The notes below the pieces were generated by a model. That model was not told where the DNA came from. It worked only from the letters and a program-made list of their open reading frames with translations, and ran no database searches. A stretch of DNA of 64,000 nucleotides from Omnitrophica WOR_2 bacterium RIFCSPHIGHO2_02_FULL_50_17. GTDB taxonomy: Bacteria; Omnitrophota; Gorgyraeia; Zapsychrales; Zapsychraceae. Location: the NCBI GenBank assembly GCA_001805645.1, contig MHGQ01000049.1, positions 66,216 through 130,215 of the forward strand, written 5' to 3'. Made by a program: the position numbers and the translations under genes. This document shows positions 27,491 through 31,336 of the stretch, piece by piece; position 1 is the stretch's first letter; the number at the start of each line of letters is the position of its first letter.

Positions 27491-29065
27491 TCATCTTCTT
27501 CTTTTCATGGCTCCTGAGGCAGACCCACCCTTTTGCGGATTTCTCTTAGCGGCGCCATAAGCTTTCTTTGCAGCTCCAGGATGCCTCTCGGCGGCCCGAT
27601 AAACTTTCTTCGCCGCACCAGGATGTTCCTGGGCCGCGCGATAAGCCTTTTTGGCAGCGGCGGGATGATTCTCCGCCGCTCGGTAGGCTTTCTTTGCCGC
27701 TCCAGGATGCCTCTCGGCGGCCCGGTAAACTTTCTTCGCCGCATCAGGATGTTTCTGGGCATCCTTATAGAGTTGTTTTGCCGCACCAGGATGTTCCTGG
27801 GCCGCACGGTAAACCTTTCTGGCAGCATCGGGATGCTGGGCGGCATCTTTGAGCACCTTAGGGGGTAGAGCCGGCTGAATGCGGTCACGGACATCTTCTC
27901 TGCGATCGCGCACATCCTCCTGGCGATCAATAACATTTTCCCGTCGATCCCGAACATCTTCTCTGCGATCACGCACATCCTCACGCCGGTCACGAACATC
28001 TTCTCTTTGATCCCAAACGTCCTCCCTCGCGTCACGGATATCTTCGAGTTTATCCTTACGGCCGCCTTCATGCTGACTGTCCCAGACATCTTCCCGTGCG
28101 TCCAGAATATCTTCACGGCGGTCGCGGACATCTTCGCGTTTGTCCCACACATCCTCCCGATGGTCGCGGACGTCTTCGCGCCGGTCATGGACATCTTCCC
28201 GCCGGTCGCGATAATCTTCCCTGCGGTCACGCACATCCTCAACACGATCCTTAAAATGCGGGCCAGTCCCTGGGCCTCCAACAGGCCCCGGCGGATTCAC
28301 TCCAGGATGCTCCTCTAAAAACTTGCGATGTTTGTACGCCTCTTGCGCCACCTCCGGATGCTGATTAAGCCACTCCCGTTTTTCATAAAGTTTTTTCGCC
28401 ACATCAGGATGGTTCTCCAAAAACTCCCGATTTTTGAAAACCTCTTTAGCGACACCAGGATGTTGACCCAGCCACTCGCGATTTCCGTAAACTTCTTGAG
28501 CCACGCCGGGATGCTCCTTAAGCCATTGACGGTTGGCGATTAGCTTTTGGGCAATGCCGGGATGTTCCTCAAGCCATTTGTGGTCTTTATAAAGATACGG
28601 AAGCTCTCCCTTATGTTCAATAAGCTTCTGCTTCTCAGCCTGTTTGTAGGCCTTGGCCTCGTCCAAATCCAGGGCGCCGTCGCCGTCGGCATCAAACATG
28701 ACAGCCCTGTCCCAGCGCTCATCCCCAAAGGCCTGGGCCTCTCGCTGTGTGCGGTTATTCGTCCAATCCTCTTCTGTTAAAAGCCCGTCATCGCCGGCCA
28801 GTGTGTCAAATTTACTCCTGTCATAATAGTCATCATACTTCTCTATGATCCCTTCCCCGGTTGCGCCGGCGTGTCTTTCCTTGAATTCCTCCAGCCTTTC
28901 CTGCCTGGTTTCGATAACCTGCGCCGCGCCGGGATGCTTCTCCTCAAATGCCTCGATGCGTTCGGTACGCTTTTCGATGGCGGTGGAGATTCCGCCGCCT
29001 TCCTGCGCCCCCGCGACCGGCACCATCCAGATGCCGAACGCTAAAACAAGGAATAATCTCTTCAT
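27491..29065 (-). CDS. Secreted tandem-repeat protein (EF-hand, WLxxHPGVA 17-mers, REDVRDR heptads, HPGAAKKAYRAAE 13-mers)
   Basis: The true start is probably MKRLFLVLAFGIWMVPVAGA, a signal peptide, preceded by the RBS GGAGGG. The track ORF begins 23 codons earlier. It carries a canonical EF-hand loop (DADGDGALDLDE), about 6 repeats of 17 aa, about 20 repeats of 7 aa, and about 8 repeats of 13 aa. The repeats are also visible at DNA level. Confidence 0.7.
   Translation of the reverse strand: MKRLFLVLAFGIWMVPVAGAQEGGGISTAIEKRTERIEAFEEKHPGAAQVIETRQERLEEFKERHAGATGEGIIEKYDDYYDRSKFDTLAGDDGLLTEEDWTNNRTQREAQAFGDERWDRAVMFDADGDGALDLDEAKAYKQAEKQKLIEHKGELPYLYKDHKWLEEHPGIAQKLIANRQWLKEHPGVAQEVYGNREWLGQHPGVAKEVFKNREFLENHPDVAKKLYEKREWLNQHPEVAQEAYKHRKFLEEHPGVNPPGPVGGPGTGPHFKDRVEDVRDRREDYRDRREDVHDRREDVRDHREDVWDKREDVRDRREDILDAREDVWDSQHEGGRKDKLEDIRDAREDVWDQREDVRDRREDVRDRREDVRDRRENVIDRQEDVRDRREDVRDRIQPALPPKVLKDAAQHPDAARKVYRAAQEHPGAAKQLYKDAQKHPDAAKKVYRAAERHPGAAKKAYRAAENHPAAAKKAYRAAQEHPGAAKKVYRAAERHPGAAKKAYGAAKRNPQKGGSASGAMKRRR
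27540..27850. repeat. Intragenic tandem DNA repeat, about 39-bp period (encodes the HPGAAKKAYRAAE 13-mers)
   Basis: Periodic recurrence of ccaggatg...cggcggcccgataaactttcttcgccgc. Confidence 0.7.
27873..28255. repeat. Intragenic tandem DNA repeat, 21-bp period (encodes the EDVRDRR heptads)
   Basis: Recurrent gcggtcacggacatcttctct-like units. Confidence 0.7.
28300..28610. repeat. Intragenic tandem DNA repeat, 51-bp period (encodes the WLxxHPGVAxEVYxNRE 17-mers)
   Basis: CCAGGATG / CCGGGATG recurs every 51 nt. Confidence 0.7.
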
Positions 29066-29163
29066 GGTTTTACCCTCCCTTTCCAATCTTGCCGCATGTT
29101 TTGTACGCTTGGTCATATCTATCCCATTAAACACAGTGTTTGTCCAAAAGTTTCGCAGAAATT

Positions 29164-29937
29164 TTACCGACTGCCTCGTTTGCGGTAAATTGGCCCCGGG
29201 CCGGGGCCGCCCGATTTCTGACGCACGTCAGAAATCTCCCCGCCACCCGCCGAAGGCGAGGCTCGCCCTTGACGGCCCGCCGCGGGACGCGGCCTGTTTT
29301 CTTCCAAAGGACGCCGCGCCTGTACAGGAGGCTCTTTAAGAAACCGGCCTCCCCGACGTTCATTTGTTCTTTGCCTAAACTCTTCCCTTAATTCCTGCTT
29401 TCGTTCCGGCGCAAGATTCTGCCATTTTTCCCTTCGTTCCCTTAGCTGCTGTCTTTGTTCAGGGGGCAATCCCCTGAAACGCTTATACCGCTCCCGGATC
29501 AACTGCTTTTTCTCAGGCGGAAGCTGCTGCCATCTTTTATACTTTTCAACAATCTCCTGACGCCTGTTCGGCGGCAAATTCCTAATCCTTCCCCAATTCT
29601 GACGTACTTTCTTTTTTAATTCGGGAGGCAGCTGTTGATACCGCTGAAATCTCTGCTTGATTTCAGCTTTCTGGGCCGGGTCCAGATTTCTCCATCGCTC
29701 TAATCGCTTCCTTAACTTCTGTTTCTGTTCAGGGGGTAGTTGTTGCCACCGGCGGCGGGCCTGCGGAGAAACTTCTCCGCCCTCACCAACACCTTCCTGA
29801 ACGGCTTTTTGTTGTTGTGACGGCATGGGTGTTGTCTGCGCTTGGTCTTGCGCCGTATAAGCGATGCCGCAAGCCAACACAGCAATCAGAACAAAAGAAA
29901 ATATATACAATCGGCGTCGTTTATTGTTCATTTCCAC
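29164..29937 (-). CDS. DUF3106-like periplasmic repeat protein (W-x2-L-P-P-E-x-K/R repeats)
   Basis: Signal anchor, then about 8 repeats such as RWQQLPPEQKQKLRKRLERWRNLDPAQK. From memory this matches the DUF3106 pattern. The tail is Arg/Gly-rich. Confidence 0.6.
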   Translation of the reverse strand: MEMNNKRRRLYIFSFVLIAVLACGIAYTAQDQAQTTPMPSQQQKAVQEGVGEGGEVSPQARRRWQQLPPEQKQKLRKRLERWRNLDPAQKAEIKQRFQRYQQLPPELKKKVRQNWGRIRNLPPNRRQEIVEKYKRWQQLPPEKKQLIRERYKRFRGLPPEQRQQLRERREKWQNLAPERKQELREEFRQRTNERRGGRFLKEPPVQARRPLEENRPRPAAGRQGRASPSAGGGEISDVRQKSGGPGPGPIYRKRGSR

Positions 29938-30151
29938 TCACCTCCCATTCATCTAAGACCTCATAGTCATCCAAAAAAACCGCATTTTCCTCCAAGAACT
30001 CCAGACTCTCTAGAAATTCCAGATTCGTGATAACCTCCGCGTCCTCTTCGGAAATTCCCTCCGCTTCTTGAGCGGAGTCAGTAACCACGTCCGCCGCAAG
30101 GGGCGCTGTCCATATCAAGACCAAAATACCGGCCATGAACAACGTTCTCAT
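29921..30151 (-). CDS. Small secreted acidic protein (76 aa)
   Basis: A signal peptide (MRTLFMAGILVLIWTAPLAA) followed by the acidic LEFLESLEFLEE...DDYEVLDEWEV. The motifs echo the C-terminal tail of the upstream anti-sigma factor. Confidence 0.5.
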   Translation of the reverse strand: MRTLFMAGILVLIWTAPLAADVVTDSAQEAEGISEEDAEVITNLEFLESLEFLEENAVFLDDYEVLDEWEVSGNEQ

Positions 30152-30729
30152 ATGAGCTCCAAACTATCCGCGTTCTCGATCACTTCCAGATCCTCAAAAA
30201 AATCTATGTCCTGAATAATGTCAAAATTTTCGGCCAGCTCGATGTCTTCGGCCGCCCCCAGAGAAGGATGGTCGAAGACCATCTCCAGTTCCTCCTGGTT
30301 CAAGTTGGCGGCCAGATCCTGCGCCTCCCGCATCTGCCAGTAATTGCGCAAAGAAAAAATCCCGGTAAAAACCAGGACGCAAACCGCGGCGAAGACAGGC
30401 GCTAAGCGTTTCCTGCGCAAGCCCTCAAGTGATTCCTGGATCCCCCGCGCGACCCTTTCCCTCCATGGCCGCTGAAGGGAAACCCTAGTCCAAAAGCGGG
30501 AGACATAGCCGGGGGACGGCTCAATGTTTTGCCACTCTCCCAGCATCTTCCACGAGCGTTCCAGGGCATGGAGTTCCTTCTGGCAGGCCGCGCAGGACGC
30601 CAGATGCTCTTTAACGGCCATGGTCTCTTGCGGGTCCGATTCACCGTCTAAATAAACAGGGATGAGTTTTTTTATCTCAACACAGCGCATTTTTGTCCCT
30701 CCCACATTTATAACACATCGCCTATTCAA
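30148..30729 (-). CDS. Anti-sigma factor, zf-HC2 type, single TM with an acidic periplasmic tail
   Basis: The HLASCAACQ motif (H-x3-C-x2-C), the TM segment LAPVFAAVCVLVFTGIFSL, and a C-terminal acidic region. The probable start is the internal MRCVEIKK. Confidence 0.7.
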   Translation of the reverse strand: MNRRCVINVGGTKMRCVEIKKLIPVYLDGESDPQETMAVKEHLASCAACQKELHALERSWKMLGEWQNIEPSPGYVSRFWTRVSLQRPWRERVARGIQESLEGLRRKRLAPVFAAVCVLVFTGIFSLRNYWQMREAQDLAANLNQEELEMVFDHPSLGAAEDIELAENFDIIQDIDFFEDLEVIENADSLELI

Positions 30730-31336
30730 AAGTTTCGGCGGGCGTTAATTTATTTTTAAGGTTCTCTTTGGCCCGGCTCAGAAGCGATTTGACCGCCTTA
30801 ACCGATAGGCGCATGGTCTGAGCAATCTCCTCATAGGAAAACTGTTCGTACCGGCGCAAAATCACGGCCATACGCTGGTTCTGCGGCAAAGAGTCAATGG
30901 CCTCCCGCACCGCCGCCGCGGCCTCCTCGCGCAATATCTGTTCATCCGCCCGCGGGGCCGCTGTATCCTCTATTTGTCTCTCCATCGGGCCGTCATCGGA
31001 TACAAAAGGATCATCGAGGGAAACAGCTATTTTTTTATGATGCCTCAGCTCATTAAGGCTGATATTCTTTGCGATGGTATAAATCCATGTCTGAAACTTG
31101 GATTTTGGCCGATACCGCGACGCCGCATGGTAGACCTTCAGAAAAACCTCCTGGGTTAAATCCTCAGCGATTTCCCGGCGGCCGACAAACCGAAAGATAA
31201 AATTGAAAAGACGGGGATAATATTTGTGCATGAGGGTCTCAAAGGAACGATTATTGCCCCCTTGCACCTCAAGCATTAAACGGACATCAGGGTCATCCAG
31301 GAAGGGATTGGGTTTATCCACAAAGAGCATGATCAA
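30722..31336 (-). CDS. ECF (sigma-24 / RpoE-type) RNA polymerase sigma factor
   Basis: Sigma-70 region 2 (LTQEVFLKVY...) and a region 4 HTH (FSYEEIAQTMRLSVKAVKSLLSRA). Confidence 0.85.
   Translation of the reverse strand: MIMLFVDKPNPFLDDPDVRLMLEVQGGNNRSFETLMHKYYPRLFNFIFRFVGRREIAEDLTQEVFLKVYHAASRYRPKSKFQTWIYTIAKNISLNELRHHKKIAVSLDDPFVSDDGPMERQIEDTAAPRADEQILREEAAAAVREAIDSLPQNQRMAVILRRYEQFSYEEIAQTMRLSVKAVKSLLSRAKENLKNKLTPAETFE

What the first reader, a model, noticed from the sequence alone, without database searches (positions are those of the whole stretch)
29921..30729. Small secreted acidic protein echoes the periplasmic tail of the adjacent anti-sigma factor
The anti-sigma C-terminus reads ...EDIELAENFDIIQDIDFFEDLEVIENADSLELI. 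The downstream 76-aa protein reads ...EDAEVITNLEFLESLEFLEENAVFLDDYEVLDEWEV. Both are acidic, with amphipathic LE-x-LE periodicity, and both sit after a hydrophobic anchor or signal. The genes overlap by 4 nt. This looks like a duplicated sensing or decoy module, and I do not know of an equivalent in known anti-sigma systems.
Basis: seen in the sequence. Interest (0 to 1): 0.55.

Follow-up and report, generated by a model that had tools for sequence, protein, structure and literature searches.

The report
Secreted copy of anti-sigma sensor tail
A small secreted acidic protein encoded right after a membrane anti-sigma factor is built from the same six-residue repeat as that factor's outer tail, and this pairing, always next to a very basic DUF3106 protein, is conserved in many uncultured bacteria, pointing to an undescribed way of tuning a stress-response switch from outside the cell membrane.

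Summary
The window comes from an Omnitrophota genome (GCA_001805855.1). The 76-aa ORF (29921-30151, minus strand) is a real gene, represented by 57 clusters at 50% identity in a 1.8-billion-protein library, all 58-104 aa long. Both it and the anti-sigma tail are tandem arrays of one hexad, x-x-Φ-[E/D]-Φ-Φ, where Φ is a hydrophobic residue. Direct BLASTP between them is not significant (E 2.7). Profile comparison is significant (hhalign 97%, E 5.6e-11). A profile of the small family scores real tails at 12-33 bits, whereas shuffled tails never exceed 14. Permuting the order of the hexads leaves the scores unchanged. So the two share a repeat unit, and duplication of the whole tail is not shown. 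The order sigma, anti-sigma, small acidic protein, basic DUF3106 protein occurs in 17 of 20 distinct loci. In unrelated lineages, DUF3106 genes also follow an ECF sigma gene and a membrane protein with this acidic tail (P 4e-22). DUF3106 is predicted with high confidence as a basic stack of 18-residue helix repeats with no solved relative. My best mechanism, which is inferred and untested, is that DUF3106 binds the tail and the secreted mimic competes for it. I found no literature on this. I class it as a new variant of ECF signalling.

The parts
30722..31336 (-). ECF (group IV) sigma factor, 202-204 aa; its start overlaps the upstream PLP-enzyme gene
   Evidence: Pfam Sigma70_r2 9.3e-20 and Sigma70_r4_2 1.9e-17. 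NCBIfam TIGR02937 sigma70-ECF scores 125.7 bits against a cutoff of 42.9.
30148..30690 (-). Single-pass zinc-finger (zf-HC2) anti-sigma factor, 180 aa
   Evidence: Pfam zf-HC2 1.6e-10. H29, C33 and C36 are nearly invariant in 24 homologues. AF2 is confident for residues 1-130 and gives a helix at 97-129 that includes the transmembrane segment.
30349..30402 (-). Transmembrane helix of the anti-sigma factor (residues about 97-114), preceded by RRKR on the cytoplasmic side
   Evidence: Read directly from the sequence and from the AF2 helix. The topology is inferred from the positive-inside rule.
30151..30294 (-). Periplasmic acidic hexad-repeat tail (residues 133-180): EELEMV [9-aa insert] EDIELA ENFDII QDIDFF EDLEVI ENADSL ELI
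   Evidence: Hexad register and period 3/6. The tail is conserved in all homologues. AF2 pLDDT is 44-47, so it is probably disordered on its own. There is a sub-threshold Pfam LED_rpt hit.
   Evidence: 16 close homologues. 57 clusters at 50% identity, all 58-104 aa. No Pfam or NCBIfam family matches. ATGA overlap with the anti-sigma stop codon and a GGAG ribosome-binding site.
30092..30151 (-). Predicted Sec signal peptide of the small protein (MRTLFMAGILVLIWTAPLAA | D)
   Evidence: The basic N-region, hydrophobic core and AXA-like site recur across family members, for example VQA|S, VYA|E and LAA|E. Cleavage is inferred and was not predicted with a dedicated tool.
29939..30046 (-). Hexad-repeat region of the small protein: EDAEVI TNLEFL ESLEFL EENAVF LDDYEV LDEWEV
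   Evidence: This is the most conserved part of the family. It aligns to the anti-sigma tail in hhalign.
29164..29931 (-). DUF3106 protein, 255 aa from ATG 29931, with a signal or anchor sequence and net charge about +36, pI 11.4
   Evidence: Pfam PF11304 scores 99.3 bits against a cutoff of 24.3. Charge. The ATG and ribosome-binding site overlap the end of the small ORF.
29341..29766 (-). Seven to eight 18-residue repeats of DUF3106 (W-x-x-L-P-P-E-x-K-x-x-L-R-x-R-x-x-R), predicted as a stack of 15-residue helices
   Evidence: Repeat register. AF2 pLDDT is 94-97 for residues 58-199, with eight helices separated by 3-residue turns. No solved structural relative was found.
27491..29134 (-). Downstream secreted repeat protein (524-547 aa); a possible fifth, variable member of the cluster
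   Evidence: No family match. Proteins with similar REDVRDR-type repeats follow DUF3106 in L017, L020, L011 and L026, but not in L012, L025 or L029.

Best explanation
**Shown.** The 76-aa ORF is a real gene for a small acidic protein with a signal-peptide-like N-terminus, so it is probably exported to the periplasm. After that N-terminus it consists of five to six tandem copies of the same hexad (x-x-hydrophobic-E/D-hydrophobic-hydrophobic) that makes up the roughly 45-residue periplasmic tail of the zf-HC2 anti-sigma factor encoded just upstream. The four genes (ECF sigma, anti-sigma, small acidic protein, highly basic DUF3106 protein) overlap or abut, and this order is conserved. The acidic hexad tail also travels with DUF3106 in unrelated lineages.

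**Inferred mechanism.** The basic DUF3106 helix-repeat protein is the periplasmic binding partner of the acidic tail. By binding, it sets the stability or the inhibitory state of the anti-sigma factor. The tail is otherwise short and probably unstructured, which would leave it open to regulated proteolysis. The secreted hexad protein is a free mimic of that tail and competes for DUF3106. The ratio of mimic to DUF3106, or anything that perturbs their electrostatic and hydrophobic pairing, would then set how much sigma factor is released. This would be a partner switch by mimicry on the outer side of the membrane.
For: - **The gene is real and conserved.**. All 57 clusters are small proteins.
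- **Shared module.** hhalign E 5.6e-11, the shuffle control, and reciprocal specificity within the window.
- **Hexad register.**
- **Operon coupling.** ATGA overlap, ribosome-binding sites, and an 11-nt overlap with the DUF3106 gene.
- **Cassette conservation.** The small gene lies directly after the anti-sigma gene in 17 of 20 distinct loci, and a DUF3106 gene follows in every locus long enough to show it. Net charges are -11 to -20 for the small protein and +17 to +57 for DUF3106.
- **Link between the tail motif and DUF3106 in other lineages.**
  - Three DUF3106 genes taken from other lineages all follow an ECF sigma gene plus a single-pass membrane protein.
  - Two of those membrane proteins carry recognisable hexad tails, for example KDLDLLENLELLEEMDTLEKL in L033.
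  - Among 5420 ORFs from 123 loci, 12 of the 13 ORFs scoring at least 10 bits with the Omnitrophota tail or small-protein profiles lie immediately upstream of a DUF3106-like gene (hypergeometric P 4e-22). They come from 8 DUF3106 clusters at 60% identity.
- **A tail that probably folds only on binding.** AF2 gives the tail pLDDT 44-47 when modelled alone.
- **A structured partner.** DUF3106 is predicted as a confident, regular, very basic helix stack, pLDDT 94-97.
Against: - No interaction was tested.
- Three related loci (L013, L022, L023) lack the small gene yet keep the same six-hexad tail and DUF3106. The mimic is therefore dispensable for the core system.
- There is no same-locus co-variation between tail and small protein (0.29 against 0.28 identity).
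- DUF3106 could simply be a regulon product rather than a ligand of the tail.
- I did not establish that the sigma factor controls its own operon. Reading the DNA upstream of the sigma genes showed no recognisable ECF-type promoter, and a sigma-70-type scan found no more sites than in shuffled sequence.
- The direction of the effect (whether the mimic activates or dampens the response) cannot be derived from sequence.
Confidence: 0.4

Rival explanations
1. The small protein binds the anti-sigma tail itself. Because both carry the same repeat, they could co-assemble into a folded hetero-oligomer. The small protein would then be a co-sensor or protective cap on the tail, with a role like RseB on RseA or YhdK with YhdL. 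DUF3106 would be a separate player or an output of the system.
For: The repeat unit is the same in both proteins. The tail is not confidently folded on its own. Tight translational coupling would give near-stoichiometric production. The pairing is conserved.
Against: Both partners are strongly acidic (small protein net -19; tail rich in E and D), so pairing would need counter-ions or a basic third partner. Hydrophobic residues have no 3.6-residue periodicity, which argues against a simple coiled coil. This model does not explain why hexad tails co-occur with DUF3106 in lineages that have no small protein. There is no same-locus co-variation.
Confidence: 0.2
2. Both acidic arrays are independent cation-binding elements, for divalent metals, polyamines or cationic peptides. 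The small protein would be a periplasmic buffer, or a solubility partner for the extremely basic DUF3106 protein, made as part of the regulon. The resemblance would reflect the same biophysical job rather than competition for a signalling partner.
For: The charges are extreme and opposite. The similarity lies in the repeat unit only, with no colinear signal. The small gene is dispensable in three loci. Acidic sensor patches that read cations are known elsewhere, for example in PhoQ (from my own knowledge, not tested here).
Against: The hydrophobic positions of the hexad are as conserved as the acidic ones. That points to a specific protein interface rather than bulk charge. The strict gene order and overlaps point to a stoichiometric complex.
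Confidence: 0.15
3. The small protein is a decoy or competitive substrate for the periplasmic protease that makes the first cut in the anti-sigma tail. It would slow or gate regulated proteolysis.
For: zf-HC2 single-pass anti-sigma factors are commonly controlled by regulated proteolysis (established knowledge for RseA and RsiW). The mimic carries the same repeat as the presumed cleavage target.
Against: No protease gene is linked in any of the loci examined. This model gives DUF3106 no role, although it is the component that is present in every locus long enough to show it.
Confidence: 0.1
4. The resemblance is a low-complexity or compositional artefact, or the small ORF is not a real gene.
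For: Pairwise BLASTP gives E 2.7. Both sequences are E/D/L-rich.
Against: The shuffle control, the profile comparison, the reciprocal unique hits in the window, the 57 conserved clusters of matching length, and the conserved position next to the anti-sigma gene.
Confidence: 0.02

Closest known systems
RpoE-RseA-RseB (E. coli sigma-E envelope-stress module)
   Same: An ECF sigma factor, a single-pass anti-sigma factor with a periplasmic part, and a co-transcribed periplasmic accessory protein that (in E. coli) binds that part and controls its proteolysis.
   Different: The periplasmic part here is only about 45 residues of hexad repeats, not the RseA periplasmic domain. DUF3106 is a basic helix-repeat protein unrelated to RseB. 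The E. coli operon encodes no secreted paralogue of the anti-sigma tail.
CpxP-CpxA feedback (periplasmic inhibitor titrated away from a sensor)
   Same: This is a resemblance in proposed logic only. A small, helical periplasmic protein with a basic surface sits on an acidic sensor region, and the signal arises when it is removed.
PhyR-NepR-sigma EcfG partner switch by mimicry
   Same: A module in which a paralogous copy of one partner's binding surface titrates the regulator.
   Different: In PhyR the mimic copies the sigma factor and acts in the cytoplasm after phosphorylation. Here the mimic copies the anti-sigma factor's external tail and would act in the periplasm. There is no sequence relationship.
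Pfam LED repeat (PF20854)
   Same: This is the only curated family that brushes both proteins. It weakly hits the anti-sigma tail (E 0.027), some anti-sigma homologues and 20 of 63 small-protein family members (best E 7.6e-4).
   Different: Every hit is far below the curated cut-off (14.7 bits against 59 for the window's tail). The window's small protein has no hit. I found nothing published on this family.
Proteobacterial ECF sigma - DUF3619 - DUF3106 (- RDD) clusters
   Same: The same three-part logic of sigma, small single-pass membrane protein with an acidic C-terminal tail, then DUF3106 (L031).
   Different: The membrane protein there is DUF3619, not zf-HC2. Its tail (EELADIDSAVLSDDLPVSAYLD) only loosely fits the hexad. 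There is no secreted tail-like protein. This cluster is also uncharacterised in the searchable literature.

Membership tests
ECF (group IV) sigma-70 factors | Sigma regions 2 and 4 present, no region 3 or 1, about 200 aa | tested here: met
   Sigma70_r2 9.3e-20 and Sigma70_r4_2 1.9e-17. Region 3 appears only at E 0.032 with no matched stretch. TIGR02937 scores 125.7 bits against a cutoff of 42.9.
Class I zinc-binding (zf-HC2) anti-sigma factors | N-terminal anti-sigma domain with the H-x3-C-x2-C motif, encoded next to the sigma gene, followed by a transmembrane helix | tested here: met
   PF13490 scores 41.3 bits against a cutoff of 22.2. H29, C33 and C36 are nearly invariant. AF2 is confident for the N-terminal helices and the transmembrane helix. 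Zinc binding and sigma binding are not testable here.
DUF3106 (PF11304) | Score above the Pfam gathering threshold | tested here: met
   99.3 bits against a cutoff of 24.3, in two stretches. 133 homologues were found, nearly all carrying PF11304.
Pfam LED repeat (PF20854) | Score above the Pfam gathering threshold (59 bits) | tested here: not met
   The anti-sigma tail scores 14.7 bits. The window's small protein has no hit. 20 of 63 relatives have only sub-threshold hits.
CpxP/Spy-type periplasmic helical adaptors | Shared fold with solved CpxP or Spy structures, or membership of the LTXXQ or Metal_resist families | tested here: not met
RseB-type anti-sigma-binding periplasmic proteins | Sequence or fold similarity to RseB/MucB | tested here: not met
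   No Pfam or NCBIfam hit for the small protein, and no RseB/MucB-type hit for DUF3106, whose only above-threshold family is PF11304. No PDB sequence or fold hit.
Proposed 'tail-mimic' module (this report) | Direct, mutually exclusive binding of the tail and the small protein to DUF3106 | not testable with these tools
   Only single-chain structure prediction was available. The support is gene context and co-occurrence.

The most novel reading that the evidence does not exclude
DUF3106-linked ECF systems across several phyla sense the envelope through a short acidic hexad-repeat tail that is read by a basic helix-repeat protein. Omnitrophota and some other lineages have added a secreted copy of the tail that works as an extracytoplasmic mimic. 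This would be the periplasmic counterpart of the cytoplasmic PhyR-NepR mimicry switch, and the first assigned role for DUF3106.
Probability: 0.3. Interest if true: 0.75.

Novelty: new variant of a known kind. Interest (0 to 1): 0.55.

Why it matters
ECF sigma/anti-sigma pairs are the most numerous alternative sigma systems in bacteria. For most groups the way the outside signal is read is unknown.

This analysis does four things:
- It shows that the family shares a repeat with an anti-sigma sensor tail.
- It ties that repeat to DUF3106, a widespread domain of unknown function that recurs as the third gene of ECF operons in several lineages.
- It gives a concrete hypothesis, tail mimicry competing for a basic repeat protein, that can be tested with three small proteins in vitro or in a heterologous reporter.

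If the hypothesis is right, it adds a new extracytoplasmic regulatory logic and gives DUF3106 a function. If it is wrong, the conserved four-gene cassette still marks a distinct, uncharacterised ECF group.

Tried and rejected
- **Pairwise BLASTP of tail against small protein.** Not significant (E 2.7). Profiles were needed to see the relationship.
- **Colinear homology or whole-tail duplication.** Tested by permuting the hexad order. The native order scores no better than the permutations, so I do not claim duplication of the tail as a unit.
- **Concerted evolution or same-locus co-variation.** Absent, apart from L014.
- **Profile search of 1.8 billion proteins with the small-protein family.** It returned only small proteins. 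Anti-sigma tails are too short to reach E <= 0.001 at that database size.
- **The search for related loci with the broad small-protein and DUF3106 alignments.** I replaced these with the anti-sigma alignment and a WQQLPPE DNA pattern. Only 17 of the 120 pattern matches were DUF3106-like.
- **PDB sequence searches for the small family and for DUF3106.** Nothing meaningful.
- **AF2 of the anti-sigma factor.** The tail has low confidence, so there is no structural inference for the repeat.
- **Promoter search.** Reading the DNA upstream of the sigma genes across loci showed no conserved ECF-type motif, and a sigma-70-type scan found no more sites than in shuffled sequence. Autoregulation is therefore unproven.
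- **Literature searches.** LED repeat, PF20854, DUF3106, DUF3619, anti-sigma mimicry, and Omnitrophota sigma factors all returned nothing relevant.
- **Amphipathic alpha-helix reading.** Rejected, because hydrophobic periodicity is 3/6 with none at 3.6.
Full report
**Where the window comes from and what is there.** The small ORF's exact protein is found on 15 contigs. One of them is GCA_001805855.1 (MHHB01000003), which NCBI names Omnitrophica WOR_2 bacterium RIFCSPLOWO2_12_FULL_50_9. The minus strand carries a tightly packed gene row:
- An ECF sigma factor, 30722-31336, with Sigma70_r2 and r4_2 domains.
- A zf-HC2 anti-sigma factor, 30148-30690, 180 aa.
- The 76-aa ORF, 29921-30151.
- A DUF3106 protein, 29164-29931, scoring 99.3 bits against a cut-off of 24.3.
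- A 524-547-aa secreted repeat protein, 27491-29134.

The anti-sigma stop codon and the small ORF's start codon share ATGA, and GGAG sits 7 nt upstream of that ATG. The DUF3106 ATG, with its own GGAGG, lies 11 nt inside the end of the small ORF. No terminator-like site on the coding strand lies between these genes; the only minus-strand site falls inside the anti-sigma coding sequence.

**Checking the observation.** The quoted peptides are correct. Direct BLASTP with composition adjustment is not significant (E 2.7), so the claim had to be tested with families.

The small protein has 16 close homologues. Their acidic segment is far better conserved than their signal peptide. A profile search of 1.84 billion representative proteins found 57 clusters, and every one is a protein of 58-104 aa with the same layout. 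The anti-sigma factor has 40 homologues with a conserved tail, consensus EELEMV ENIELA ENFDII QEMDFL EDLEVI ENLDSL.

Four results put the similarity beyond composition:
- Profile-profile comparison gives E 1.7e-5 with the narrow small-protein family.
- With 63 small proteins against 24 anti-sigma factors it gives probability 97.1% and E 5.6e-11. The alignment covers small-protein residues 22-74 and anti-sigma residues 119-179.
- As an empirical null, I scored the last 60 residues of 21 distinct anti-sigma factors against the small-protein HMM. Real tails give 11.9-33.4 bits. The 4200 shuffles give a mean of about 0, an sd of about 2 and a maximum of 14, and reversed sequences score below zero. 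The window's own tail is the weakest at 11.9 bits, because a 9-residue insert (FDHPSLGAA), seen only in the window and the L021 clade, interrupts the array.
- In a six-frame translation of all 64 kb, each profile's only hit besides its own gene is the other gene.

**What exactly is shared.** Both segments are tandem hexads of the form x-x-Φ-[E/D]-Φ-Φ, where Φ is a hydrophobic residue. Hydrophobic periodicity peaks at 3 and 6 and is absent at 3.6, so these are not classical amphipathic helices.

When I permuted the order of the six hexads in each tail (720 orders each), the native order scored no better than average, with ranks of 46-557. The detectable relationship therefore sits at the level of the repeat unit and its tandem arrangement. 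I cannot show that the small gene arose by copying the whole tail.

Within the aligned block, tails resemble other tails (49% identity) and small proteins resemble other small proteins (44%). Tail-to-small identity is 28-29% whether or not the two come from the same locus. Any split is therefore old, and there is no gene conversion. L014 is a partial exception at 58%.

Both proteins brush the Pfam LED repeat, but far below its threshold.

**Conservation of the pairing.** Across 20 distinct loci the small gene sits directly after the anti-sigma gene in 17, usually overlapping it. These loci are Omnitrophota MAGs, plus MAGs labelled Planctomycetales or Desulfobacterales that share the same synteny. 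A DUF3106 gene follows in every locus long enough to show it. Net charges are -11 to -20 for the small protein and +17 to +57 for DUF3106.

Three related loci (L013, L022, L023) lack the small gene but keep the six-hexad tail and DUF3106.

**The wider link to DUF3106.** I looked at three DUF3106 genes from other lineages: a Burkholderiaceae MAG, an unlabelled 1.1-Mb contig and a Deltaproteobacteria MAG. Each directly follows an ECF sigma gene and a single-pass membrane protein. Their tails are acidic:
- The Deltaproteobacteria tail is an obvious hexad array (KDLDLLENLELLEEMDTLEKL).
- The tail on the unlabelled contig is DADLQMLQDMDMLGAF.
- The DUF3619 tail from Burkholderiaceae fits only loosely.

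A metagenome scan with the DUF3106 motif WQQLPPE gave 120 stretches, 17 of them carrying DUF3106-like genes. In the resulting set of 123 loci and 5420 ORFs, 12 of the 13 ORFs scoring at least 10 bits with the Omnitrophota tail or small-protein profiles lie immediately upstream of a DUF3106-like gene (hypergeometric P 4e-22). The thirteenth overlaps the over-extended DUF3106 ORF of L103. The hits come from 8 DUF3106 clusters at 60% identity. One locus (L039) has the complete four-part cassette, including an 84-aa small protein.

The acidic hexad tail and DUF3106 therefore belong together well beyond this genome. The secreted tail-like protein is an add-on in some lineages.

**Structure.** AF2 models the cytoplasmic anti-sigma domain and the transmembrane helix with confidence. 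It gives the tail pLDDT 44-47, which fits a segment that folds only on a partner.

**Mechanism.**
- Shown: a conserved four-gene module with overlapping or abutting genes, in which two proteins present the same acidic repeat on the outer side of the membrane. One is tethered to the anti-sigma factor and one is predicted to be secreted. The third protein is a strongly basic repeat protein that co-occurs with this tail in several lineages.
- Inferred: DUF3106 binds the tail and sets the anti-sigma factor's stability or activity, and the free repeat protein competes for DUF3106. I put this at about 0.4.
- Rivals:
  - Direct co-assembly of the small protein with the tail, 0.2.
  - Independent cation-binding or charge-buffering roles, 0.15.
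  - A decoy for the protease that makes the first cut in the tail, 0.1.
  - An artefact, 0.02, which the controls already refute.
- The sign of the effect and the natural signal are unknown. Autoregulation was not established.

**Comparison with known systems.** In logic this resembles RseA-RseB, CpxP-CpxA feedback and the PhyR-NepR mimicry switch. It is a member of none of these families. DUF3106 has no CpxP/Spy or RseB similarity. The mimic copies the anti-sigma tail rather than the sigma factor. The LED-repeat threshold is not met. The sigma factor, the anti-sigma domain and DUF3106 do meet their own family definitions.

Searches of the held literature found nothing on LED repeat, DUF3106, DUF3619, or a secreted paralogue of an anti-sigma tail. 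That library omits most subscription journals, so this is absence of evidence only.

**Verdict.** I rate it a new variant of a known kind (an ECF sigma/anti-sigma module with unusual periplasmic accessories) and give it an interest of 0.55.

Noticed in passing
window 27491-29134 (-): A 524-547-aa secreted protein with three different repeat types: EHPGVAQEVYxNREWL units, a long run of REDVRDR units, and HPGAAKKAYRAAE units. It matches no family. Proteins with similar RxDxRDR-type repeats follow DUF3106 in L017, L020, L011 and L026, but not in L012, L025 or L029. It may be a variable fifth member or an output of the module.
   Followed up: partly
window 30250-30276 (-), anti-sigma residues 139-147: A 9-residue insert (FDHPSLGAA) interrupts the hexad array between hexads 1 and 2. 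It occurs only in the window's clade and in L021/P0031. This insert is why the window's own tail scores lowest against the small-protein profile.
   Followed up: partly
L013 5001-6229; L022; L023: Three related Omnitrophota loci have the anti-sigma gene followed directly by DUF3106, with no small acidic gene. The tail still has six hexads. Their DUF3106 proteins have somewhat lower net charge (+17 to +29), but the sample is too small to interpret.
   Followed up: partly
L108 about 960-1103; L068 222-545: In two proteobacterial-type metagenome loci, a different short secreted ORF carrying DMEFLEFLGSWQTRDG or LEFLGTWQTRDG lies between the tail-bearing membrane protein and DUF3106. It may be an independent small partner protein.
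   Followed up: no
L113 26-313; L144 740-1261: Another ORF lying between the anti-sigma gene and DUF3106 carries DAQMLLDLELLREAD...RMLEVLRMLES. This could be a further, more basic variant of the tail-like protein.
   Followed up: no
window 29341-29766 (-) versus 30151-30294 (-): The DUF3106 repeat is exactly 18 residues (a 15-residue helix plus a 3-residue turn), which is three times the 6-residue unit of the acidic arrays. This may be coincidence or may reflect how the two fit together.
   Followed up: no
window 31314-31336 and flanks; L001-L012, L017-L029: The sigma gene start overlaps the end of a Cys/Met-metabolism PLP enzyme gene by 23 nt. The wider synteny (PLP enzyme upstream; SPOR/TPR protein, miaA and hflX downstream) is kept across many loci. 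Reading the DNA upstream of the sigma genes showed no ECF-type promoter.
   Followed up: partly
L018, L020, L024, L026 (labelled Planctomycetales); L027, L028 (labelled Desulfobacterales or Desulfosarcinaceae): MAGs carrying these taxonomic labels have the same cassette and flanking synteny as the Omnitrophota MAGs. The labels may be unreliable, or the cassette may be shared across these groups.
   Followed up: no
L031 2534-4745: The Burkholderiaceae cluster of sigma, DUF3619, DUF3106 and an RDD protein has the same three-part logic but a different anti-sigma-like protein. Like the rest, it is uncharacterised in the searchable literature.
   Followed up: partly
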